DNA from: an uncultured Fibrobacterota bacterium
Lineage (GTDB): Bacteria > Fibrobacterota > Chitinivibrionia > Chitinivibrionales > WJKA01
Direction of reading: 5' to 3'
Assembly: GCA_964589825.1 (NCBI GenBank)
Contig: CAZPUS010000003.1
Span: 64,275-128,274 of the forward strand
Length of the DNA: 64,000 bases
Made by a program: the position numbers and the translations under genes. Shown here in pieces: positions 6,471 to 23,231 of the stretch; position 1 is the stretch's first letter, and each line of letters begins with the position of its first letter. The notes beneath the pieces were generated by a model, which searched no databases, was not told the origin of the DNA, and saw only the letters and a program-made list of their open reading frames with translations.

Positions 6471-8225
6471 TTATTTATGGGCTGTTACCAGTTTTTCGGT
6501 AATAATCCGCTCCAGCGAACGCGTATCATATACCTGGGACAGCACCGTGCAGTTGGAGGCCGCCTCCCCGCCCAATTGCTCTTTTTGGGATGCAGACATA
6601 AACGCGAATACCGGAAGCTTTCCGTCTCCGTTGGAGCCGACCGCATCGTTGGGCCGTGCGGAAAGCGCCGTAAATGCTGCGATGGCCTCTTTTGCCGCAT
6701 CGCCACCGGGCCAGAGAATAATACCGTCGAGCGTTTTATCAAGGCTTTTCGTTTCGCTGGTAGCAAAAATGTTTTGATACTGAACCTGTTCCTTGTCAAG
6801 AAAAAACCGTGGCCCCACAAACAAATCCCCGGCAAGATTGACAAAACCCAACTGCATCTGCTCACTGATGCTGTCATCAAGTTCTCTCTGAGGGAATACA
6901 CGCTCTTCGAGCCCGAGAAATTTGCGATACATCCCCACTTCATTGTATACATCATCCAGAAACTGTGGGGGTATCCCGTTCTTTCGCCGAATCGCGGAAA
7001 GAAGATGATTCGGCGTCTCTGTAATGATTTGATCACATTCCGCGCCGATACAACTGCTTTTTGCAAGCAGATCGCTGACATAGACGCAGACTTTCATTAA
7101 ATTACCCGGTGATTTCGCTTCTTCCTCGGATAATGACGGGGCATCGTATTTTTCAGTCACGCCCTGCAGAATTTTTTCGGGAAATTTCCATTTATCGAAC
7201 ACATCGGCCATTACCTGATCATGTGTAACCCGCAGGTATTGCTCCTCGGCATCGATAAACCGCATGCTTTTCTGCGTTGCATCGGTATATACTTTGGAAA
7301 AAATGGACGGGAAGAACTCATCCATAACGATTATGCCGAAATCATGCAGCAAACCCGCCAGAAACGCCTCTTCGGAAGAGAGTTGTTCGGAATGAGCCGC
7401 AAGCTTTTCCGCGATAATTCCGCTTGCAAGGCAATGATACCAGAAGTCGACACGGTCAAAGCCCAGATTGCGGCTCTCCTGATTTACCAGTTTCATGACC
7501 GACATGGCGGTCACGATGCGCTTTGTTTCCCTGAAACCGATCCTTACAACCGCATCCCGCAAGGAATTGATACGCTGATTGCGCCCCGCGAAAAAAACCG
7601 TATTTGATACTTTAAGCAAATCGGCCGATATTACCGGATCCGCCTGAATCACCTTGGCAAGGTCCTTGGCTCCTGCATCCTGATCCTCTGCAAGCTTCAT
7701 TACCCGGGCCACGGTAAACGGAAACGCAAGCAGGTTAGAGATATACCCGCTCATAATATCGATTTTGCGGGTCGCCGACGTGTCGGATGCCACGAGAAGT
7801 TCCATATCCCGTTCCTTATCCGACTTCTGTGACTCCTTTGCAAGCTGCAACTCTTTATTGTTATCTTTGGCTACTTTGCTTATACGGGTAAGCATTTTGC
7901 TGAACTTAAGCGGACGCGTATAGTAATGATTGACCCCGTCCTTTTTAATGCCGTTAAGTATGCCGCTATCCCGCTGCCACCCGTATCCCCAGATTGGAAG
8001 TGCTTTGGTATCTTTATTTTTTCTGAGCAATTTTACCAAATGAAGCTGGTCCTGACATCGGGAGGGAAGTTCTATGAGAAGGATATCCGGTTTGTACTGG
8101 CGGATGGAATTATAGGCATTGTAGGAAGGATCGGAGGTTATCACGTTTACCTGTCGCTGTTTGAGCGCCATATTGAGTATCTGGCGCTCCTTTTCGTTAT
8201 TGATAATCAACATCATGGTAAACAT
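6471..8225 (-). CDS. Pseudo-receiver + HDOD domain signalling protein
   Basis: 584 aa. The N-terminal REC-like fold lacks the acidic pocket (IINNEKE) and has Glu at the phospho-acceptor position (DILLIELP). The central HDOD domain reads FTVARVMKLAEDQDAGAKDLAKVIQADPVISADLLKVSN...GLLHDFG. Confidence 0.8.
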   Translation of the reverse strand: MFTMMLIINNEKERQILNMALKQRQVNVITSDPSYNAYNSIRQYKPDILLIELPSRCQDQLHLVKLLRKNKDTKALPIWGYGWQRDSGILNGIKKDGVNHYYTRPLKFSKMLTRISKVAKDNNKELQLAKESQKSDKERDMELLVASDTSATRKIDIMSGYISNLLAFPFTVARVMKLAEDQDAGAKDLAKVIQADPVISADLLKVSNTVFFAGRNQRINSLRDAVVRIGFRETKRIVTAMSVMKLVNQESRNLGFDRVDFWYHCLASGIIAEKLAAHSEQLSSEEAFLAGLLHDFGIIVMDEFFPSIFSKVYTDATQKSMRFIDAEEQYLRVTHDQVMADVFDKWKFPEKILQGVTEKYDAPSLSEEEAKSPGNLMKVCVYVSDLLAKSSCIGAECDQIITETPNHLLSAIRRKNGIPPQFLDDVYNEVGMYRKFLGLEERVFPQRELDDSISEQMQLGFVNLAGDLFVGPRFFLDKEQVQYQNIFATSETKSLDKTLDGIILWPGGDAAKEAIAAFTALSARPNDAVGSNGDGKLPVFAFMSASQKEQLGGEAASNCTVLSQVYDTRSLERIITEKLVTAHK

Positions 8226-8650
8226 ATTTACAGCCTTATCATACAGACGAATTTATATTTTTACACTCGCAACGACCAATGAGCGTTCGACAGAAAATAC
8301 CATTCGTTACTATGTGCTGCAGACTCAGAATGCCCTCTTCGGAGAACCACCCGCATACCATTGCGGTATCTACGTGCATGGCCCCCTCAAAACACCTGGA
8401 TTTTTGTTGGATACAACTACGCGTGCGAATGCGTACGGCGGATATCTTCACAGGATCGGACACGAAAAACTTCTCACAGCTCTCTTGCAGACGACATTTT
8501 TATATATCTCGGGATTGTTCAGTGACATTGTTTTATTTATTGCACTAACCACTACATTATAATCGTCTCTCCGCCTGTAATAACACATTGCGTCATCCGG
8601 CTGTGCAGACGCGTTTCTTAGCAAACTGCATAAAAAAATCGGCGGTACAA

Positions 8651-9007
8651 TTATATGCCGAGTTTTTCTTTGAGCGCATCAGGCTGAAATGGTTTTACCA
8701 GATAATTGTTCGCTCCCGCTTTCATCGCCTCCACCACCCGGGTCTTCTCCGACTCCGACGTACACATAATAATCTTGACATCTTTGTACGTAGCATCCTC
8801 TCGTACGGTTTTCAAAAATGTCAGCCCGTCCATCACTGGCATATTCCAATCCAGAAGAACTACATCGACCGGCATATTCTGCTTTAATGCGCCCAGCGCC
8901 TCATCACCGTTTGATGCTTCGATGATTTCACTGATTCCAAGGTTTGACAGCTGGTTTTTCTGTATACGCCGCATTGTATTGGAATCATCCACGAGTAACA
9001 CTTTCAT
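8651..9007 (-). CDS. cheY: CheY-like single-domain response regulator
   Basis: 118 aa. KVLLVDDS, VLLDWNMPVMDG, TSE and YLVKPF give a complete receiver active site. Confidence 0.9.
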   Translation of the reverse strand: MKVLLVDDSNTMRRIQKNQLSNLGISEIIEASNGDEALGALKQNMPVDVVLLDWNMPVMDGLTFLKTVREDATYKDVKIIMCTSESEKTRVVEAMKAGANNYLVKPFQPDALKEKLGI

Positions 9008-9086
9008 TGCCGTTCCTCCTTAATATGGTAACTATCGATTTCTCATAAAAAACTGACAGATTTATTAAAAAATATAGGATGATCGG

Positions 9087-9545
9087 TTATTTTGTTTTCA
9101 GTGACACCTCCATGGCAAATTCTCCCACGTTACCCTGAATCGGGACAATTATCGTGGGAGTGCCGCTCGGTGCGGTTATGGAGTGGCTCTTTCCCACTAT
9201 TACATTTGGCAGGGAAATGGTCAGTTTGTATTGACTCAACTCTTTTTTTGCATTGCCCGCGATAATATTGGCGATTTCTCCGATTGCATCGGTGACATCC
9301 GCATCAATAGTCTTTATACTCGTGCCCAGCATGGCTGAAACGACTTTGAGCGCGATCGTTTTGGGGAAACTTATCGCAATAGACCCCTGTGCTTCGCCTG
9401 ACAATCCTATAACCCCCGATACGTCATAGGTCGGCTCCTTGTCCTTTTTAATAGCCGGTTTTCCCGGTTTCACCTCCATCTGAATCATGGTCTGGAATGT
9501 TTCGAGGGTAGCTCTGATAAAGGGGTTCACATATGAGACATCCAT
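9087..9545 (-). CDS. cheX: CheX-type CheY-P phosphatase (CheC/CheX/FliY family)
   Basis: 152 aa. ALKVVSAMLG and AIGEIANIIAGNAK match the Thermotoga/spirochaete CheX blocks. Confidence 0.85.
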   Translation of the reverse strand: MDVSYVNPFIRATLETFQTMIQMEVKPGKPAIKKDKEPTYDVSGVIGLSGEAQGSIAISFPKTIALKVVSAMLGTSIKTIDADVTDAIGEIANIIAGNAKKELSQYKLTISLPNVIVGKSHSITAPSGTPTIIVPIQGNVGEFAMEVSLKTK

Positions 9546-15037: not shown

Positions 15038-15775
15038 ATGAATACATTACAGATAGAAAATATCGCTCTTGTTCTGGAAGGTCTTGAAGAAGAGATTATT
15101 TCCAAACTCATTAACAGGATTCAATTCTGCCGCAACGACATCATATATCAGGAAGGGAAAAGTGGATTCCAACATGAAGAACACAGAAGCCTTTTCGAGT
15201 TACGGCTTTACTACCAGGAACACATGGATGCCCAGTTCGGACGATTCTGTATACCGGAAGAACGCCCTTTTTCTACACAACTGCCGCCACCAAAACGGCA
15301 CGTAAACGTCAATGCGCAGGTGCTGAAAATCGACAATTATAATCATGTCAACCTGTGCAATAAAATCCTTAAAAGCTATTCCCGACTGTGTGAATGGATG
15401 TGCACTCCCGGAGACGATGCACAGCACGGATCGAGTGTTGAACATGACGTATATGCGCTACAGGCGATCGCCCGCCGCATTCATTACGGATCATTCTATG
15501 TCGCGGAAAGCAAATATCGTGTGGATTCGACTGAGTATGACAGGCTTATAGATGAAGGCAACAGGGACGCAATCGAGCAAAAGCTTACGCGGGCGGATGT
15601 GGAGGGAAAAATTCTCAACAGGGTGCACGACAAAGTGAGTGGAATTCAACATGGGGTAAATACAAAAATACGACGAACCATCGATCCCGATATTGTGCTT
15701 GCATACTACCGGGATCACCTTATTCCGATGACTAAAGAGGGTGAAATCCTTTATCTGATGCACCGCATCAGATAA
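15038..15775 (+). CDS. Chorismate mutase, eukaryotic (yeast Aro7-like) AroQ type
   Basis: 245 aa. ARRIHYGSFYVAESKY, VEGKILNRV and IPMTKEGEILYLMHRI parallel yeast Aro7 SRRIHFGKFVAEAKF, VEEKILERL and IPITKEVEVEYLLRRL. It sits between trpA and tyrA. Confidence 0.8.
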   Translation: MNTLQIENIALVLEGLEEEIISKLINRIQFCRNDIIYQEGKSGFQHEEHRSLFELRLYYQEHMDAQFGRFCIPEERPFSTQLPPPKRHVNVNAQVLKIDNYNHVNLCNKILKSYSRLCEWMCTPGDDAQHGSSVEHDVYALQAIARRIHYGSFYVAESKYRVDSTEYDRLIDEGNRDAIEQKLTRADVEGKILNRVHDKVSGIQHGVNTKIRRTIDPDIVLAYYRDHLIPMTKEGEILYLMHRIR

Positions 15776-18769: not shown

Positions 18770-20608
18770 TTAAAGAGACTGTTTACGGAGAAAACTTTCC
18801 CGATAAAAGAACAATTTGGGATCGGTAACCCTGTAGACATGCGGACCGAACCATACGTCACCCCCGGTTGGTGCCTGTTTGCCGTATCCGATATGCACAT
18901 GCGGACCCGTTGTCCTGCCGGTCATGCCAATTGTTCCGATCACTTGGTTTTTGGAAACCGAGTCACCGGTTGCGACATACCGTTCATCCATATGCGCAAA
19001 AAAGATAACCGTATTACCACTTACAACACCGACCGTTTTACCGGCAAGTGAATTATATTTCAGATACACCTTACCGGCAACGGGGGTACGTATCTGCGCC
19101 CCCAGATCTGCCGCCACATCGATTCCATAGTGAGGTGTCCCACCACCGGTGCCGCGTTCGCACCAGTCACCGGTAATGTACGAGAACGAATCTGTCACTA
19201 TGGAACAGAAAAATTCATACGCAGGAGACAGTGACTTATAATTGTTATTATCGATAGTTTGCGGTGGGTAAAAGGCCAGTTTGGCCCCCTGCGGAATAAA
19301 CTCGCTTGTTGCTCTGGGCCCGTCGTGCGTATTATTGTATATGTCAAGGGTCTGACGAATATATTCGTTCAATTGCGCATCTCCTGGGACTATCGCACTA
19401 TGTCTGCATATTGCATATTTGGCAAGACGGAATATCGATTCATCTTTTCCGAAGCGATGGTAGAATACGCGCTGCTTTTCCTTCTTTGACAATTGTACCG
19501 GAGCAAGTGGCTCTGGTGCAGAACGATTTGAAATTGGCGGGTTCCATAAAAGCCCCACGAATAAAACGAGCACCGCCGCTATTTTGTACCATACCCTCGG
19601 AATTGAGGCTCTCTTGGCCGATCCGTTTCCATACGCAAGGTTGTGCGAATAATTGTTAAGGGTATACTGTACCATTGTACAAAGTGAATCGAATGCTTTG
19701 GAGGCTTTAGAGTATTTCTTATACTCGAAAATACTCATGCCCTGGTCCTGCGCATCCCGGATAACCGATGTTTCCGGTATTTCTACATCGAATACGATTG
19801 ACTGGGGTAACATGGCAGAACCACGTCCGTTCTGAATCACGACGGTTTCACACAATTTCTGCAGGAACAATCTGTTTTCGTTTATTGTCCGTGTTTTCCC
19901 CTGTGACCGGGATCCTTTTCTTCCGTATACTTCGTTTTTAATAATCCGTATATGTACCTGTCTGTCCTGCTGGGCAAGCTTTTTCACATTAAGCAGATAA
20001 TCCTTGAAACTCCTTGTCGAAAGCGCACTCAGCGTTACCGGAATAAGGTTAAGGTCGCTTTCGCGATAAAGGCGCTTCGTAACGGTATTCCATATTGATG
20101 GAGTATCTATGAGTATGTATTTATAGTACTGGCGCAACAGAGAAAGATTAAAAAGGAAGTTCTGAATCTGGTAGGGACCCGGCGCACTGTGAAGCGCATA
20201 ATTTGCGGGTATTATATCGAATCCCGGAGAAATCGGAACTACCACTTCGGTAATATCGCCCTTGCCGAAGACCCAGGGAAACAGCGCGGATGCCCCTTTT
20301 TCCGTAACGTTCCGTACAGTCTCCAGCCCCGTATGCGCCCCCGTGTGTATACCCCATGGCGCAAAACGTTTTTTGAATAGATTCCAGGTTGTAGATGCAT
20401 ATTCATTAGGGTCCTTCCCGTACGCGTATGTCGCACTGCCCTGCGCATCCATATCTATGATGACGCATCGTCCCCGTTTTGACAAATGATATGCAAGGTT
20501 TGTCGCAATTGTGGACTTGCCTACTCCACCCTTGATATTTGCGACATTAATAATCCCGCCGGAATCGGCATCTTTAAACAGCACACCTTTATCTTTCGTA
20601 TTTGTCAT
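18770..20608 (-). CDS. Fusion protein: ParA/MinD-type ATPase, transmembrane segment, M23 (LytM) metallopeptidase
   Basis: 612 aa. Deviant Walker A NIKGGVGKSTIA, then IIDMDAQGSAT and ILIDTPS. TM segment VWYKIAAVLVLFVGLLW. C-terminal M23 motifs PHYGIDVAA (HxxxD) and TGPHVHIGY (HxH). Confidence 0.85.
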   Translation of the reverse strand: MTNTKDKGVLFKDADSGGIINVANIKGGVGKSTIATNLAYHLSKRGRCVIIDMDAQGSATYAYGKDPNEYASTTWNLFKKRFAPWGIHTGAHTGLETVRNVTEKGASALFPWVFGKGDITEVVVPISPGFDIIPANYALHSAPGPYQIQNFLFNLSLLRQYYKYILIDTPSIWNTVTKRLYRESDLNLIPVTLSALSTRSFKDYLLNVKKLAQQDRQVHIRIIKNEVYGRKGSRSQGKTRTINENRLFLQKLCETVVIQNGRGSAMLPQSIVFDVEIPETSVIRDAQDQGMSIFEYKKYSKASKAFDSLCTMVQYTLNNYSHNLAYGNGSAKRASIPRVWYKIAAVLVLFVGLLWNPPISNRSAPEPLAPVQLSKKEKQRVFYHRFGKDESIFRLAKYAICRHSAIVPGDAQLNEYIRQTLDIYNNTHDGPRATSEFIPQGAKLAFYPPQTIDNNNYKSLSPAYEFFCSIVTDSFSYITGDWCERGTGGGTPHYGIDVAADLGAQIRTPVAGKVYLKYNSLAGKTVGVVSGNTVIFFAHMDERYVATGDSVSKNQVIGTIGMTGRTTGPHVHIGYGKQAPTGGDVWFGPHVYRVTDPKLFFYRESFLRKQSL

Positions 20609-20642
20609 GACATCACCACCTCTGGATGGTTCTCTCTTTATT

Positions 20643-20821
20643 CCTTAACTAATTGTACAGTATTGTGTTGACACTGTCAAGTAAATCTAACGACATTGTT
20701 GTTAGGTTGCAGAAAATCGTGCTCGGCATATATCAAAAATCGGAAATTGGGCCCGTATCAGGTTGTTATCGTATGCAGAAACTGCAGTAGTGAGAAGCTT
20801 TTTCTGATTATGCTACCCCGG
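20643..20821 (+). repeat. Imperfect-palindrome intergenic element, divergent copy with an insertion
   Basis: ccttaactaattg..., gaaaatcgtgctcgg, caggttgttatcgtatgc and agaagctttttctgatt correspond in order to the conserved blocks of the 41045 copy. The termini are poorly paired. Confidence 0.4.
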
Positions 20822-20951
20822 ATTACAATCACATCGTGGACAAAAATATAAAGCGGCAATTACTCGTTCCAGACACCTTCTCAAAAAACTGAATATACAG
20901 ATGAAACAGGTATCTTGCGGCATAACCGTCAGTTACGGACAATACGGCATG

Positions 20952-21632
20952 TCACTTTGACTTTTGCGTAATTTCGGCAACAAGATTCCCGGCATTCTGA
21001 TGGTATTTTGTATGCAAGGTATCCGCTATAATAGATCGGCATAACTGCAGGGCTTCCTGATAGTTGCCGCCATCTGCTTCCAGACACGCCATCTTCCACG
21101 CAACCGCATTTTTACGATGGGCATATGCCTGATACTCTCTGGCCTTTTCAAAAGACCGACGCGCCTGCGGCTGATCATCCATATATTCATAACAGACTCC
21201 TTCAGCCTCAAAAACCGCCCCTTTAATAAACGTATTATCAGGCAGCTTGCCGGAAGCAACCGATAACCACTCCAATGCAGCGCTGTACTCACCATCGCTC
21301 ATTCTGTTTTTTGCAAGCAAAAATGCACTGTAGCCTGCATAGGAAGTATTGCTGTAATTGTTCACGATACTTTCGAGCTCGTATGAGGCACTGTCAACCC
21401 CAAAAGTCCGTGCAACAAACATCGCCGTGCCGAATGATTCCTGCGCATTTTTCATGGTCGTACTTTTAATCGCCCTGTAAGAAAACATGCCGATTCCAAC
21501 CAGCACTATCACCGTAATTACACCAATCACTCCGCTTCGGTGCTCCCGAACGAATTTTTGCAGACGGGAAATGACATCGGCCAGGGGGTCTTTTCGGTAC
21601 TCTTCCTTCTTCTTGTTCGGTGAAATATGCAT
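20952..21632 (-). CDS. Membrane-anchored TPR-like protein (YfgM/UPF0070-like)
   Basis: Start trimmed to M55 (ATG at 21632) of the 280-aa track ORF. One TM (GVIGVITVIVLVGIGMF) followed by helical-repeat sequence (YSAALEWL..., YQEALQLC...). Confidence 0.55.
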   Translation of the reverse strand: MHISPNKKKEEYRKDPLADVISRLQKFVREHRSGVIGVITVIVLVGIGMFSYRAIKSTTMKNAQESFGTAMFVARTFGVDSASYELESIVNNYSNTSYAGYSAFLLAKNRMSDGEYSAALEWLSVASGKLPDNTFIKGAVFEAEGVCYEYMDDQPQARRSFEKAREYQAYAHRKNAVAWKMACLEADGGNYQEALQLCRSIIADTLHTKYHQNAGNLVAEITQKSK

Positions 21633-22013: not shown

Positions 22014-23231
22014 GTGGCACAACTAAAAGGAAATGCGGTTATTGCCCAGGGGGGCGGGCCTACCGCAGTTATCAATCAAAGCTTGGTTGGCGCAATTATC
22101 GAGGCACAGAAATATTCGTGCATCGATAAAATTTACGGCGCAAAACACGGCGTTCGCGGGATTATCGATGAAGATCTGGTAGATCTTACCAGTACGACAT
22201 CCTACAACCTCGAATTTGTCGGTATGACACCTTCCTCGGCGTTGCTCTCCACCAGAGACAAACCGGATGAAGAATACTGTGCAAAGATTTTCGAAGTGTT
22301 AAAAGCACACAATGTACGATTCTTTTTCTACATCGGCGGCAACGACTCTGCCGACACATGCCGTATTGTAAATGAGAATGCCAAAGAGGCGGGCTATGAG
22401 CTCTGTGTCGTCCACATCCCAAAGACTATCGACAATGACCTGCGGGTTACCGATCATTGCCCCGGATTCGGCTCCGCCGCCAAATTCGTGGCGCAATCAT
22501 TCGCCGGAGTAAATCTTGACAACCGCAGTATTCCGGGAGTATACATCGGCGTGGTAATGGGCCGTCATGCCGGGTTCCTTACCGCTGCCGGTGCGCTGGC
22601 CAAAAAATATGAAGATGACGGCCCGCACCTGATCTATGTACCTGAAAAGCCGTTTTCTTCTGATAATTTCATCGAAAAAGTCGATGGAGCCTATTCCCGA
22701 TACGGCCGCTGTGTAATCGCTGTTTCGGAAGGTGTGGTTAATGAAAACAACGAACCGATCGTAACCACCTTGACAAAGGACAACGAAAAAGACGCACATG
22801 GCAACGTACAGCTTTCCGGTACGGGGGCGCTCGCCGATGCGCTGTCTTCTCTTATCAAGGAAAAGCTGAAAATAAAACGTGTGCGCGGTGATACATTCGG
22901 CTACCTGCAGCGCAGCTTCCTTGGCGCTATATCCGAAACCGACAGTCGCGAAGCACGCGAGGTCGGTGAAAAGGCTGTCCAGTACACCGTACTCGAAAAC
23001 CGCAGCGGGAGCGTCGCAATCGTCAGAACCGGAAACTATGCAGTAGAATACACGCTTACTGCGCTGGAGAATGTTGCACGTCATACCAAATCCATGCCGG
23101 ACGAATTCATAGACGCGGATAATGCCGGTGTAACACCTCAATTTATCGACTATGCACGTCCGCTGGCCGGAGTGCTTCCGGCGCAGGAACGCCTGCAGGC
23201 GCCAGCAGTTGAAAAAATTCTTAACAGTTAA
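22014..23231 (+). CDS. 6-phosphofructokinase family enzyme (possibly PPi-dependent type)
   Basis: 405 aa. GTG start with an AAGGAG SD 8 nt upstream. AQGGGPTAVINQS, YIGGNDS, PKTIDNDL and MGRHAGFL. Confidence 0.85.
   Translation: MAQLKGNAVIAQGGGPTAVINQSLVGAIIEAQKYSCIDKIYGAKHGVRGIIDEDLVDLTSTTSYNLEFVGMTPSSALLSTRDKPDEEYCAKIFEVLKAHNVRFFFYIGGNDSADTCRIVNENAKEAGYELCVVHIPKTIDNDLRVTDHCPGFGSAAKFVAQSFAGVNLDNRSIPGVYIGVVMGRHAGFLTAAGALAKKYEDDGPHLIYVPEKPFSSDNFIEKVDGAYSRYGRCVIAVSEGVVNENNEPIVTTLTKDNEKDAHGNVQLSGTGALADALSSLIKEKLKIKRVRGDTFGYLQRSFLGAISETDSREAREVGEKAVQYTVLENRSGSVAIVRTGNYAVEYTLTALENVARHTKSMPDEFIDADNAGVTPQFIDYARPLAGVLPAQERLQAPAVEKILNS

What the first reader, a model, noticed from the sequence alone, without database searches (positions are those of the whole stretch)
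18770..20608. Single polypeptide joining a cytoplasmic ParA/MinD ATPase to a periplasmic M23 peptidoglycan endopeptidase
The 612-aa ORF has a complete deviant-Walker-A ATPase at the N-terminus (KGGVGKST, DMDAQG, LIDTPS). One hydrophobic span follows (VWYKIAAVLVLFVGLLW). The C-terminus is a LytM/M23 domain that retains the metal ligands (HYGID, HVH). ParA/MinD proteins position cargo on the nucleoid or membrane, and M23 enzymes cleave peptidoglycan cross-links. Coupling the two across the membrane would give nucleotide-dependent, spatially controlled hydrolysis at, for example, a septum, pole or flagellar insertion site. I am not aware of this architecture having been characterised.
Basis: partly seen in the sequence, partly recalled or inferred. 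Interest (0 to 1): 0.65.

Follow-up and report, generated by a model that had tools for sequence, protein, structure and literature searches.

The report
ParA ATPase fused to M23 endopeptidase
This is a genuine, conserved but uncharacterised membrane protein of the phylum Fibrobacterota: one chain has a ParA-type ATPase inside the cell, a single membrane helix, and an apparently active cell-wall-cutting M23 enzyme outside, which suggests a new way of controlling wall cleavage from the cytoplasm.

Summary
Pfam, PHROGs and structure comparison support a complete ParA/Soj-type ATPase (residues 18-320), one TM helix (336-355) and an M23 domain (477-595). All catalytic residues are invariant in 28 relatives at about 48% identity. 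The fusion is not an assembly artefact: more than 120 independent full-length homologues exist, and every named one is from Fibrobacterota.

New findings:
- A wider superfamily keeps the TM helix, a family-specific linker domain and an intact M23 site. In about 30 representative clusters, including cultured Fibrobacter succinogenes and Hallerella, the ATPase motifs are destroyed. These are pseudo-ParA domains (hhalign 94.5%).
- Most loci encode a small atypical receiver-like protein immediately upstream. The window and its closest relative lack it.
- Three of the four Soj DNA-binding positions are non-basic, which argues against nucleoid-guided positioning.

Most likely this is a bitopic peptidoglycan DD-endopeptidase whose cytoplasmic ParA domain acts as an ATP-dependent dimerisation or regulatory switch. 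That mechanism is inferred, not shown. No publication on this architecture was found. Novelty: new variant of a known kind. Interest is about 0.55.

The parts
18770..20608 (-). Complete gene for the 612-aa ParA-TM-linker-M23 fusion protein (stop codon included)
   Evidence: ORF list. An identical protein, P0001, and more than 120 full-length homologues.
19649..20557 (-). Cytoplasmic ParA/Soj-type deviant Walker A ATPase domain (residues 18-320), with a variable helical insertion at about 85-115
   Evidence: Pfam AAA_31, CbiA and ParA. PHROG ParA-like 19-313, E=4.5e-36. AF2 model. Foldseek matches to Soj, ParA, FlhG, McdA, BcsQ and MinD with target TM-score 0.7-0.79.
20510..20539 (-). Deviant Walker A NIKGGVGKST (signature Lys26; P-loop K31, S32, T33)
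   Evidence: Invariant in 28 of 28 aligned relatives. Coordinates verified.
20438..20461 (-). Switch I / Walker A' IIDMDAQG (D52, D54, Q56), the ParA-type DxDxQG form
   Evidence: D52, D54 and Q56 are invariant. Coordinates verified.
20096..20119 (-). Walker B YILIDTPS (D168)
   Evidence: D168, T169, P170 and S171 are invariant. This is the region of hhalign homology to the degenerate forms.
19868..19909 (-). Family-specific invariant basic cluster RSQGKTRTINENRL (G237, K238, R240, T241, E244, N245, R246); function unknown
   Evidence: Column counts across the alignment.
19754..19783 (-). EIPETSVIRD, the counterpart of Soj's adenine-binding/DNA-binding motif I-P-K-S-V-K. The two Lys positions are Glu279 and Val282 here.
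   Evidence: HMMER alignment to HpSoj. Residue definitions from PMC6393308. Column counts.
19544..19603 (-). Single transmembrane helix (residues 336-355), preceded by a basic low-confidence tether (321-335)
   Evidence: Hydropathy and flank-charge analysis in 28 relatives. AF2 helix 330-355.
19490..19519 (-). Conserved proline-rich juxtamembrane motif APEPLAPVQL (family consensus APRPxAPQQL)
   Evidence: P365, P367, A369 and P370 are invariant.
19199..19471 (-). Family-specific periplasmic linker domain (residues 380-470): beta-alpha-alpha-beta plus a helix, predicted to pack with M23 as one unit; no Pfam match
   Evidence: AF2 models (periplasmic model pLDDT 85.8, pTM 0.81). No Pfam hit for residues 337-488. 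Conserved across the superfamily. Not matched in the PDB.
18824..19180 (-). Periplasmic M23 (LytM-type) metallopeptidase domain (residues 477-595), with HxxxD (H493, D497; nt 19118-19132), catalytic H539 (within nt 18986-19003) and HxH (H570, H572; within nt 18890-18907)
   Evidence: Pfam Peptidase_M23 at 65.1 bits. All five residues are invariant in the family and conserved in all 42 superfamily representatives except P0126, whose first HxH histidine is Arg (SPRVHI). Foldseek matches EnpA, ShyA, Csd1/2, LytM and lysostaphin.
18776..18820 (-). Conserved C-terminal helix (residues 597-611; DPKLFFYR motif)
   Evidence: D596, P597, K598, F600 and F601 are invariant. AF2 helix.
20652..20680 (-). 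Sigma-70-like promoter TTGACA-17-TACAAT (11 of 12 matches), ending about 44 nt upstream of the ATG
   Evidence: Consensus scan. This is a pattern match only, and the total count in the region is not above the shuffled expectation.
20609..20951 (-). 343-nt non-coding gap at the position where most relatives encode the small receiver-like partner; no remnant detected
   Evidence: No ORF longer than 37 aa. No tblastn or HMM hit. Not conserved with the gap in L085. No Rfam match.
20952..21632 (-). Upstream co-directional gene for a membrane-anchored TPR_21 (YfgM-like) protein (226 aa from the ATG at 21632), syntenic with the fusion gene in most Fibrobacterota loci with an intact ATPase
   Evidence: Pfam TPR_21 at 42.8 bits. 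Synteny in 11 of 15 related loci plus L085.

Best explanation
The gene encodes a bitopic inner-membrane peptidoglycan DD-endopeptidase specific to Fibrobacterota.

Shown:
- An N-terminal cytoplasmic ParA/Soj-fold ATPase has every residue needed for ATP binding, sandwich dimerisation (signature Lys26) and hydrolysis.
- A tether of about 15 residues leads to one TM helix.
- The periplasmic part is a family-specific linker domain packed against an M23 domain with a complete zinc and catalytic site.

Inferred mechanism:
- ATP binding makes the two cytoplasmic domains form the usual nucleotide-sandwich dimer. As in MinD, both C-termini then face the membrane.
- Dimerisation brings two TM helices and two periplasmic modules together. 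ATP hydrolysis releases them.
- The oligomeric state, and with it the localisation or the open/closed state of the linker-M23 unit, would therefore be set from the cytoplasm. This would couple cell-wall cleavage for growth, division or shape to the cell's energy or signalling state.
- In most relatives a small atypical receiver-like protein encoded immediately upstream is the probable cytoplasmic partner. This lineage has lost that gene and appears to transcribe the fusion gene from its own promoter.
For: - Both domains and the topology are supported.
- Walker A, Switch I, Walker B and all five M23 catalytic residues are invariant at about 48% identity, which indicates purifying selection on both activities in this tier.
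- The periplasmic part is predicted as one compact unit, pTM 0.81.
- M23 enzymes with closed and open forms, ShyA and the 6jmx/6jmy peptidase, are among the structural matches.
- The small receiver-like gene is conserved immediately upstream across both tiers.
- murB lies directly downstream in L088.
- The family spans the phylum, including cultured Chitinispirillum, Fibrobacter and Hallerella. A housekeeping envelope role would fit that, but it is not shown.
Against: - There is no experimental evidence of any kind.
- ATPase motifs were lost in about 30 representative clusters, apparently more than once, while the M23 site stayed intact. ATP switching therefore cannot be essential to the core function of the superfamily.
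- How a single TM helix would transmit a signal is unknown.
- I could not inspect model coordinates to see whether the linker domain occludes the active site.
- The partner gene is absent in the window.
- Substrate specificity (DD-endopeptidase) is assumed from sequence and fold matches to ShyA/MepM/Csd3-type enzymes, all below NCBIfam cutoffs.
Confidence: 0.5

Rival explanations
1. The cytoplasmic domain is mainly a scaffold. The ParA fold would serve as a docking platform for the receiver-like protein or another cytoplasmic landmark, tethering and localising the endopeptidase much as bactofilin recruits LmdC. ATP turnover would be an accessory or vestigial feature.
For: - Pseudo-ATPase forms keep the domain, the TM helix, the partner gene and the active M23 site. 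They include F. succinogenes and Hallerella.
- ATPase decay appears to have happened at least twice.
- The BacA-LmdC precedent supports this mode of recruitment (PMC10945521).
Against: In the window's tier every ATP-binding and hydrolysis residue is invariant across about 50% sequence divergence, which is hard to explain without a functional ATPase. The window also lacks the proposed partner yet keeps the ATPase.
Confidence: 0.25
2. This is classical ParA positioning. The ATP-bound dimer would bind the nucleoid or a ParB-like partner, so that wall hydrolysis is patterned relative to the chromosome, for example by nucleoid occlusion of cleavage.
For: - The ATPase is ParA/Soj-type rather than MinD-type: it has the DxDxQG form, and its best sequence and fold matches are Soj, ParA and PF-32.
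- The domain is net basic and carries an invariant GKTRT..ENR(K/R) cluster of unknown role.
Against: - Three of the four Soj DNA-patch positions are acidic, non-basic or Tyr in 26-28 of 28 sequences.
- No ParB-like gene is adjacent in any locus.
- The permanent TM anchor precludes diffusion over the nucleoid.
- Pseudo-ATPase orthologues exist.
Confidence: 0.1
3. This is a dedicated wall-opening enzyme for inserting a trans-envelope machine such as a flagellum, pilus or secretion system. The ParA domain would act like FlhG or TadZ in choosing the site.
For: - The window organism has chemotaxis genes.
- flgM lies about 3.5 kb away in L002-L004.
- The receiver-plus-ParA pairing recalls TadZ/CpaE (own knowledge).
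- FlhG and FleN are among the fold matches.
Against: - Orthologues are present in cultured Fibrobacter and Hallerella. Lack of motility was long taken as a phylum feature on the basis of Fibrobacter (abstract of PMC4704652).
- No flagellar, pilus or secretion genes are consistently adjacent.
- The NCBIfam CpaE-type hit is far below its cutoff.
Confidence: 0.05
4. This is a non-catalytic LytM factor. The M23 domain would activate amidases, as EnvC, NlpD and DipM do, rather than cut peptidoglycan itself.
For: EnvC and DipM LytM domains are among the structural matches. The analogy to cytoplasmic-ATPase control by FtsEX-EnvC is attractive.
Against: H493, D497, H539, H570 and H572 are invariant in the family, and one superfamily representative, P0126, has Arg at the first HxH histidine. 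LytM factors are defined by degenerate sites (abstracts of PMC10336132).
Confidence: 0.03
5. This is an artefact: a frameshift or chimeric assembly has joined two separate genes.
For: None was found. Read depth cannot be checked here.
Against: - More than 120 independent full-length homologues come from NCBI, JGI, ENA and Logan assemblies, with conserved length and a conserved junction, TM helix and linker.
- The architecture is the same in the isolate genome of Chitinispirillum alkaliphilum.
- Base composition is uniform across the gene.
Confidence: 0.01

Closest known systems
FtsEX-EnvC, FtsEX-PcsB and FtsEX-RipC (a cytoplasmic ATPase controlling a periplasmic LytM/hydrolase module)
   Same: A cytoplasmic nucleotide cycle is coupled across the inner membrane to a LytM/M23-fold protein acting on peptidoglycan (abstracts). 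The EnvC LytM domain is a structural match.
   Different: FtsE is an ABC ATPase, FtsX is a multi-pass membrane protein, and EnvC is a separate, catalytically dead activator. Here a ParA-fold ATPase, one TM helix and a catalytically complete M23 domain form a single chain. No sequence relationship exists outside the M23 fold.
BacA-LmdC module (a bactofilin recruiting a bitopic M23 endopeptidase; PMC10945521)
   Same: Both are bitopic inner-membrane proteins with a C-terminal periplasmic active M23 domain whose placement is governed by the N-terminal cytoplasmic part.
   Different: LmdC has only a cytoplasmic tail of about 38 residues with a beta-hairpin, plus a periplasmic coiled coil, and it depends on a separate bactofilin polymer. 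Here the cytoplasmic part is a 320-residue ParA ATPase, the periplasmic spacer is a globular domain, and no bactofilin gene is adjacent in any locus examined.
ShyA, MepM, Csd3 and Pgp3-type M23 DD-endopeptidases
   Same: These are the best sequence and fold matches for the catalytic domain, with a complete HxxxD/H/HxH site. Closed and open forms of ShyA and the 6jmx/6jmy peptidase show that neighbouring domains can gate M23 activity.
   Different: Those enzymes are secreted or lipid-anchored periplasmic proteins with LysM or other N-domains and no cytoplasmic ATPase. All NCBIfam equivalog scores here are far below cutoff (for example ShyC 43.8 against 700). The linker domain here matches none of theirs.
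MinD, FlhG and Soj (deviant Walker A dimerisation switches)
   Same: They share the fold and all nucleotide-switch motifs. Like MinD and FlhG, the C-terminus leads to the membrane.
   Different: The reversible amphipathic membrane-targeting helix is replaced by a permanent TM helix. The Soj DNA patch is not conserved. No MinE-, MinC- or ParB-type partner gene is adjacent. A periplasmic enzyme is attached.
TadZ/CpaE (atypical receiver domain plus ParA/MinD-like ATPase)
   Same: An atypical receiver fold is paired with a ParA-like ATPase. Here the two are encoded as adjacent genes in most relatives. The resemblance is from my own knowledge of TadZ.
   Different: TadZ is a single soluble polypeptide within tad pilus loci. 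Here the receiver is a separate protein that is absent in the window, there are no tad genes nearby, and the NCBIfam CpaE-type score is far below cutoff.

Membership tests
ParA/MinD (SIMIBI, deviant Walker A) ATPases | Deviant Walker A KGGxxGK[ST] with a signature lysine | tested here: met
   NIKGGVGKST at residues 24-33, invariant in 28 of 28.
ParA/MinD (SIMIBI, deviant Walker A) ATPases | Switch I Asp residues and a Walker B Asp | tested here: met
   D52, D54 and D168 are invariant.
ParA/MinD (SIMIBI, deviant Walker A) ATPases | Complete fold over the whole domain | tested here: met
   PHROG ParA matches residues 19-313 at E=4.5e-36. Foldseek target TM-score is 0.7-0.79 to Soj, ParA, FlhG and MinD.
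ParA/MinD (SIMIBI, deviant Walker A) ATPases | ATP-dependent sandwich dimerisation and partner-stimulated hydrolysis | not testable with these tools
   This needs biochemistry. Only the residues required for it are shown.
Chromosomal/plasmid ParA (Soj) partition ATPases | Basic nsDNA-binding patch (HpSoj K199, K227, K230, K247; PMC6393308) | tested here: not met
   K227 is E/D in 28/28, K230 is non-basic in 28/28, and K247 is Y in 26/28. The K199 equivalent could not be aligned.
Chromosomal/plasmid ParA (Soj) partition ATPases | NCBIfam ParA_partition equivalog score and an adjacent parB-type gene | tested here: not met
   The score is 67.9 bits against a cutoff of 180. No ParB-like gene is next to any of the loci.
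MinD | C-terminal amphipathic membrane-targeting helix; minC and minE context | tested here: not met
   The C-terminus of the ATPase continues into a true TM helix. TIGR01968 scores 26.6 against 212.9. No min genes are adjacent.
Peptidase family M23 (LytM-type metalloendopeptidases) | HxxxD and HxH zinc ligands plus a catalytic His | tested here: met
   H493, D497, H539, H570 and H572 are invariant in the family and conserved in all superfamily representatives except P0126, whose first HxH histidine is Arg (SPRVHI).
Peptidase family M23 (LytM-type metalloendopeptidases) | Pfam model above the gathering score, and the fold | tested here: met
   65.1 bits against 28.7. EnpA target TM-score is 0.79-0.81, and LytM and lysostaphin score about 0.7.
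Peptidase family M23 (LytM-type metalloendopeptidases) | Zinc-dependent cleavage of peptidoglycan cross-links, and its bond specificity | not testable with these tools
   This needs an enzyme assay on sacculi or muropeptides.
LytM factors (EnvC, NlpD, DipM) | Degenerate, catalytically inactive M23 site | tested here: not met
   The active site is complete, so this protein is not filed as a LytM factor.
FtsEX-type regulators | ABC-type ATPase (FtsE) with a multi-pass FtsX permease-like partner | tested here: not met
   The ATPase has the ParA fold, and there is a single TM helix.
LmdC-like bactofilin-associated M23 peptidases | Short cytoplasmic beta-hairpin tail, a periplasmic coiled coil, and an adjacent bactofilin gene (PMC10945521) | tested here: not met
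   The cytoplasmic part is a 320-aa ATPase, and the linker is globular. No bactofilin family appears among the neighbours.
BcsQ (JGI's label) and BY-kinases (Wzc) | Family model cutoffs and cellulose or capsule gene context | tested here: not met
   TIGR03371 scores 37.1 against 157.85, and TIGR01007 scores 24.7 against 108.05. No bcs or wz genes are nearby.

The most novel reading that the evidence does not exclude
This would be a single-polypeptide trans-envelope switch. ATP-driven ParA dimerisation in the cytoplasm, transmitted through just one TM helix per subunit, would gate an active M23 endopeptidase in the periplasm. It would be an independent, minimal solution to the task performed by FtsEX-EnvC. 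A dedicated atypical receiver protein would act as its input, and related lineages would provide a natural series of pseudo-ATPase derivatives.
Probability: 0.25. Interest if true: 0.75.

Novelty: new variant of a known kind. Interest (0 to 1): 0.55.

Why it matters
Bacteria must keep peptidoglycan hydrolases under tight spatial and temporal control, and only a few ways of controlling them from the cytoplasm are understood, such as FtsEX-EnvC and bactofilin-LmdC.

This family puts a well-understood nucleotide switch and an apparently active endopeptidase in one chain, separated by one helix. It could be a compact system for studying how a cytoplasmic state is conveyed to a periplasmic enzyme.

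The co-existence of forms with intact, intermediate and dead ATPase domains, all with an unchanged catalytic site and the same small partner gene, offers a natural experiment on what the ATPase contributes.

The family also marks an uncharacterised, phylum-wide envelope component in Fibrobacterota, which includes major fibre and chitin degraders. Current annotations ('AAA family ATPase', 'M23 family metallopeptidase', 'BcsQ/MepM') each describe only half of the protein.

Tried and rejected
- **Remnant of the partner gene in the gap.** I searched the 343-nt gap for the receiver-like gene with tblastn, a three-frame translation and a family HMM and found nothing. The only HMM hit in the window, 8651..9007, is an ordinary CheY next to a CheX-like gene.
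- **RNA or conserved element in the gap.** There is no Rfam match, and the gap is not conserved with L085.
- **Fusion in Steroidobacteraceae (L075).** This locus has two separate genes, a 246-aa ParA and a 305-aa TM-M23 protein. Another Steroidobacteraceae locus has no M23 gene nearby, so the adjacency is probably incidental.
- **Defence-system or phage origin.** PADLOC gives only a local P-loop hit, and the PHROG hits are generic ParA and M23 families. Synteny is with housekeeping genes.
- **LysM identity of the linker domain.** The beta-alpha-alpha-beta order suggested LysM, but Pfam gives no hit and Foldseek against the PDB aligns only the M23 part, so this is left unassigned.
- **Naming the window's organism.** P0001 has no name or contig on record. 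The organism is inferred to be Fibrobacterota from homologue labels and synteny.
- **Taxon of the intermediate lineage (P0138, P0142).** Only two unnamed sequences exist.
- **FSU_2836 of F. succinogenes S85.** This is listed as an uncharacterised cytoplasmic-membrane Peptidase_M23 protein in PMC6851124 and may be the orthologue, but I could not verify the sequence.
Full report
**Observation**

The window holds an uninterrupted 612-codon ORF at 18770..20608 on the minus strand. These are NIKGGVGKST (residues 24-33), IIDMDAQG (50-57), YILIDTPS (164-171), the hydrophobic span IPRVWYKIAAVLVLFVGLLW (336-355), HYGID (493-497), FFAHMD (H539) and GPHVHI (H570, H572).

Pfam scores both halves above their gathering thresholds: AAA_31 at 74.3 bits, CbiA at 45.7, ParA at 37.2, and Peptidase_M23 at 65.1. 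No NCBIfam equivalog reaches its cutoff, so the protein does not belong to a named orthologous group such as ParA_partition, MinD, BcsQ, ShyA/C or MepM. PHROGs matches residues 19-313 end to end to ParA-like partition proteins at E=4.5e-36.

**The fusion is not an artefact**

A search of 5.8 billion proteins returned an identical NCBI protein and more than 120 full-length relatives. They are 605-650 aa long, cover 98-100% of the query at 46-52% identity (one at 74%), and all carry both domains. They come from NCBI, JGI, ENA and Logan assemblies.

The names given are 'AAA family ATPase' from Chitinivibrionales, Chitinispirillaceae or Fibrobacter sp., and 'Peptidase, M23/M37 family' from the isolate Chitinispirillum alkaliphilum. 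JGI labels them 'BcsQ/MepM'. In a scan of species-representative genomes, all 13 full-length matches are Fibrobacterota. Base composition is even across the gene.

The locus is syntenic with C. alkaliphilum and with the closest relative, L085. In each, the fusion gene is followed by a convergent aroA-tyrA-(unknown)-trpA-trpB block and preceded by a TPR_21 gene.

**Anatomy**

In an alignment of 28 relatives at about 48% identity, the following residues are invariant:
- K26, G27, G28, G30, K31, S32 and T33 (Walker A)
- D52, D54 and Q56 (Switch I)
- D168, T169, P170 and S171 (Walker B)
- H493, D497, H539, H570 and H572 (M23 site)

Only one segment is hydrophobic enough to span the membrane. It sits at the same position in 27 of 28 relatives, although its sequence varies. 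Its N-side flank carries about three K/R residues against about one on the C-side. With no signal peptide, an ATPase that needs cytoplasmic ATP, and an enzyme whose substrate is periplasmic, the topology must be N-in/C-out. I inferred this from hydropathy and the positive-inside rule; no dedicated topology predictor was available.

The AlphaFold model (pLDDT 77.5) gives the following layout:
- a ParA fold at residues 18-320, with a variable helical insertion at about 85-115
- a low-confidence basic tether at 321-335
- a TM helix at 330-355
- a beta-alpha-alpha-beta unit plus a helix at 380-470
- the M23 beta-domain at 477-595
- a conserved terminal helix at 597-611

Foldseek against the PDB matches the N-domain to Soj, ParA, FlhG, McdA, BcsQ, FleN and MinD, with target TM-scores up to 0.79. 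It matches the C-domain to EnpA at 0.77. No solved chain contains both domains.

Modelled alone, the periplasmic part is a confident single unit with pLDDT 85.8 and pTM 0.81. Its PDB matches (EnpA, ShyA closed and open forms, Csd1/2, LytM, lysostaphin, DipM, EnvC) align only to the M23 part. The linker domain has no Pfam hit, so it remains a family-specific domain of unassigned fold. A proline-rich motif (consensus APRPxAPQQL) directly follows the TM helix.

**A wider superfamily with dead ATPases**

An exhaustive HMMER scan of 1.84 billion 50%-identity representatives found only 37 proteins at E<=1e-30 and 153 at E<=1e-10. Besides about eight full-length representatives with intact ATPase motifs, roughly 30 representatives of 388-668 aa match only query residues ~335-608, which cover the TM helix, the linker and M23.

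A motif table shows that all of them keep HxxxD, the catalytic His, HxH and the TM segment. Their Walker A and Walker B are destroyed. The one blemish in the M23 motifs is the intact-ATPase representative P0126, which reads SPRVHI, with Arg at the first HxH histidine.

Their N-terminal domains are nevertheless ParA-derived. Profile-profile comparison gives 94.5% probability (E=7.7e-8) over the Walker-B core. Two rare proteins, P0138 and P0142, are intermediate: Pfam still detects AAA_31, but their Walker A reads DSWGEFGATS.

Named members of the degenerate tier are annotated 'M23 family metallopeptidase' and come from Hallerella succinigenes, Fibrobacter succinogenes, Fibrobacter sp. UWB11 and Fibrobacteraceae MAGs. 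A rough midpoint-rooted NJ tree of the shared periplasmic module, without bootstrap support, places the degenerate forms in two separate positions. This suggests the ATPase was lost more than once. I did not test whether any genome carries both an intact and a degenerate copy.

**A conserved partner gene that is missing here**

In most loci a gene of 116-174 aa ends 3-40 nt upstream of the fusion gene. It has a receiver (CheY-like) fold: Pfam Response_reg scores 38.8 bits in L008 and is weaker elsewhere. The copies from the degenerate tier match an HMM of the intact-tier copies at E=8e-9 to 5e-6.

Aligned to CheY, the phospho-acceptor Asp is present in about six of ten copies and is Asn in the others. 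The T87 position is Asn in all. The receiver is therefore atypical and, at least in part of the family, cannot be phosphorylated.

Many intact-tier loci also have an upstream co-directional TPR_21 (YfgM-like) membrane protein and a divergent SpoIIE-type phosphatase. The window keeps the TPR_21 gene (20952..21632) but lacks the phosphatase and the receiver gene. In place of the receiver gene there is a 343-nt gap with the following properties:
- It has no ORF longer than 37 aa and no tblastn or HMM remnant.
- It is not conserved with the equivalent gap of the 74%-identical relative L085.
- It has no Rfam match.
- It contains a near-consensus promoter-like site, TTGACA-17-TACAAT, ending about 44 nt before the ATG. 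This is a pattern match only.

**What kind of ParA**

The Switch I form DxDxQG and the best matches (Soj, ParA, Borrelia PF-32) place the domain with ParA rather than MinD. HpSoj binds non-specific DNA through K199, K227, K230 and K247, and K227 and K230 lie in the conserved I-P-K/R-S-V-K/R motif (PMC6393308).

The HMMER alignment anchors that motif on this family's E-I-P-E-S/T. Column counts give E/D at the K227 position in 28/28, no Lys or Arg at K230 in 28/28, and Tyr at K247 in 26/28. The K199 equivalent could not be aligned because of a family-specific insertion. That insertion carries an invariant basic cluster, G237-K238-T-R240-T...E244-N245-R246-K/R247, whose role is unknown.

The canonical nucleoid-binding surface is therefore not conserved, but a different basic surface cannot be excluded.

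**Most likely mechanism**

*Shown:* the protein is a bitopic inner-membrane protein with a cytoplasmic ParA-type ATPase bearing all switch residues and a periplasmic M23 domain bearing all catalytic residues. Both sets are under purifying selection in this tier.

*Inferred:* ATP-bound ParA/MinD-type proteins form nucleotide-sandwich dimers through the signature lysine, and in MinD both C-termini of the dimer point to the membrane. That is established knowledge for the family, and the MinD-ATP dimer 3q9l is among the fold matches. The same geometry here would bring two TM helices and two periplasmic modules together in the ATP state and release them after hydrolysis.

Neighbouring domains are known to gate M23 endopeptidases, as the closed and open forms of ShyA and the 6jmx/6jmy peptidase show. 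The linker-M23 unit is therefore a plausible target of such control. The receiver-like protein is the obvious candidate for a cytoplasmic input or partner where it exists.

The phylum-wide spread and the murB neighbour in one lineage point to general wall remodelling for growth, division or shape rather than a specialised machine. I put this at about 0.5. The architecture itself is near-certain; the coupling mechanism is conjecture.

**Rivals**

The strongest rival (0.25) is that the ParA fold is chiefly a scaffold or landmark-binding domain, comparable to the cytoplasmic tail of LmdC that docks on bactofilin (PMC10945521), with ATP turnover accessory. The pseudo-ATPase orthologues argue for this. 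The strict conservation of every ATPase residue in the window's tier argues against it for this protein.

The other rivals are weaker:
- Nucleoid- or ParB-guided positioning (0.1) is weakened by the lost DNA patch, the permanent anchor and the absence of parB-like neighbours.
- A flagellum- or pilus-specific wall opener (0.05) is weakened by orthologues in cultured Fibrobacter and Hallerella, in a phylum long described as non-motile on the basis of Fibrobacter (abstract of PMC4704652), and by the lack of consistent context.
- A catalytically dead LytM factor (0.03) is contradicted by the intact site.
- An assembly artefact (0.01) is excluded.

**Comparison with what is known, and novelty**

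The protein works most like FtsEX-EnvC and BacA-LmdC, which exert cytoplasmic control over a periplasmic LytM/M23 module, but it is a member of neither. The ATPase is ParA-fold rather than ABC. There is one TM helix rather than a permease. The M23 domain is catalytically complete and covalently attached. No bactofilin gene is nearby.

It is a member of the ParA/MinD superfamily and of peptidase family M23 at the domain level. It is not a member of any named orthologous group that I tested.

Full-text searches found no paper on a ParA-M23 or MinD-LytM fusion, and a survey of autolysin architectures does not mention an ATPase partner domain. An F. succinogenes envelope proteome lists FSU_2836, an uncharacterised cytoplasmic-membrane Peptidase_M23 protein that rose 1.74-fold on cellulose (PMC6851124). 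It may be the pseudo-ATPase orthologue, but I could not verify the sequence.

I rate this a new variant of a known kind. The sequences are already in public databases under half-descriptive names, but the architecture, its partner gene and its ATPase-decay series appear to be undescribed.

**Limits**

- Model coordinates could not be inspected.
- The tree is a quick distance tree.
- No function is experimentally supported.

Noticed in passing
window 20609-20951: This is a 343-nt non-coding gap exactly where most relatives encode the small receiver-like partner. It has no remnant of that gene, is not conserved with the equivalent 416-nt gap in the 74%-identical relative L085, and has no Rfam match. 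It carries a near-consensus sigma-70-like promoter at 20680..20652 (-).
   Followed up: yes
window 6471-9545 (minus strand): A canonical CheY (8651..9007), a CheX/CheC-like protein (9087..9545) and a 584-aa receiver-containing regulator (6471..8225) lie together. The source organism therefore appears to be chemotactic and motile.
   Followed up: partly
window 15038-15775 (+): A conserved ~245-aa gene with no Pfam match on record for its homologues in L001 and L085 sits between trpA and the prephenate dehydrogenase gene, in the same position in the window, in C. alkaliphilum (L001) and in L085. It may be an unrecognised aromatic-pathway enzyme such as a chorismate mutase.
   Followed up: no
L075 2111-3926 (Steroidobacteraceae MAG): A stand-alone 246-aa ParA gene is followed 157 nt later by a gene for a 305-aa TM-anchored M23 peptidase. 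This is the same two activities encoded as neighbouring genes. Another Steroidobacteraceae locus (L018) has no M23 gene nearby, so the adjacency may be coincidental.
   Followed up: partly
L088 5610-8544: This rare intermediate lineage (P0138 and P0142, the only two sequences known) still scores as AAA_31 in Pfam, but its Walker A reads DSWGEFGATS. The locus order is the receiver-like gene, the fusion gene, then murB 9 nt downstream.
   Followed up: partly
L086 7381-7914; L087 2082-2516; L089 8692-9144; L090 8703-9155: Fibrobacter and Hallerella loci with the pseudo-ATPase form have a further small gene (144-177 aa, no Pfam match) directly downstream. It may be a third component specific to that tier.
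   Followed up: no
L001 5175-6737; L002 5165-6691 (and L005, L007, L008, L011, L013, L017): A ~510-aa SpoIIE/PP2C-type phosphatase is transcribed divergently from the TPR_21/receiver/fusion operon in many intact-tier loci. It is absent next to the window's copy, where a phosphofructokinase-like gene (22014..23231) takes that position.
   Followed up: partly
window 19868-19909 (residues 234-247) and 19490-19519 (residues 364-373): Two family-specific invariant motifs have no known function. One is a basic cluster, GKTRT..ENR(K/R), inside an insertion of the ParA fold. The other is a proline-rich APRPxAPQQL motif immediately after the TM helix.
   Followed up: partly
window residues C401 (nt 19406-19408), C471 (nt 19196-19198) and C483 (nt 19160-19162): The periplasmic part of the intact tier has conserved cysteines: C483 in DWCERG is in at least 90% of relatives, and the C in AKYAIC is in most. 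They are absent from the degenerate tier. They might form a disulfide between the linker domain and the Gly-rich loop beside the active site, but distances could not be checked.
   Followed up: no
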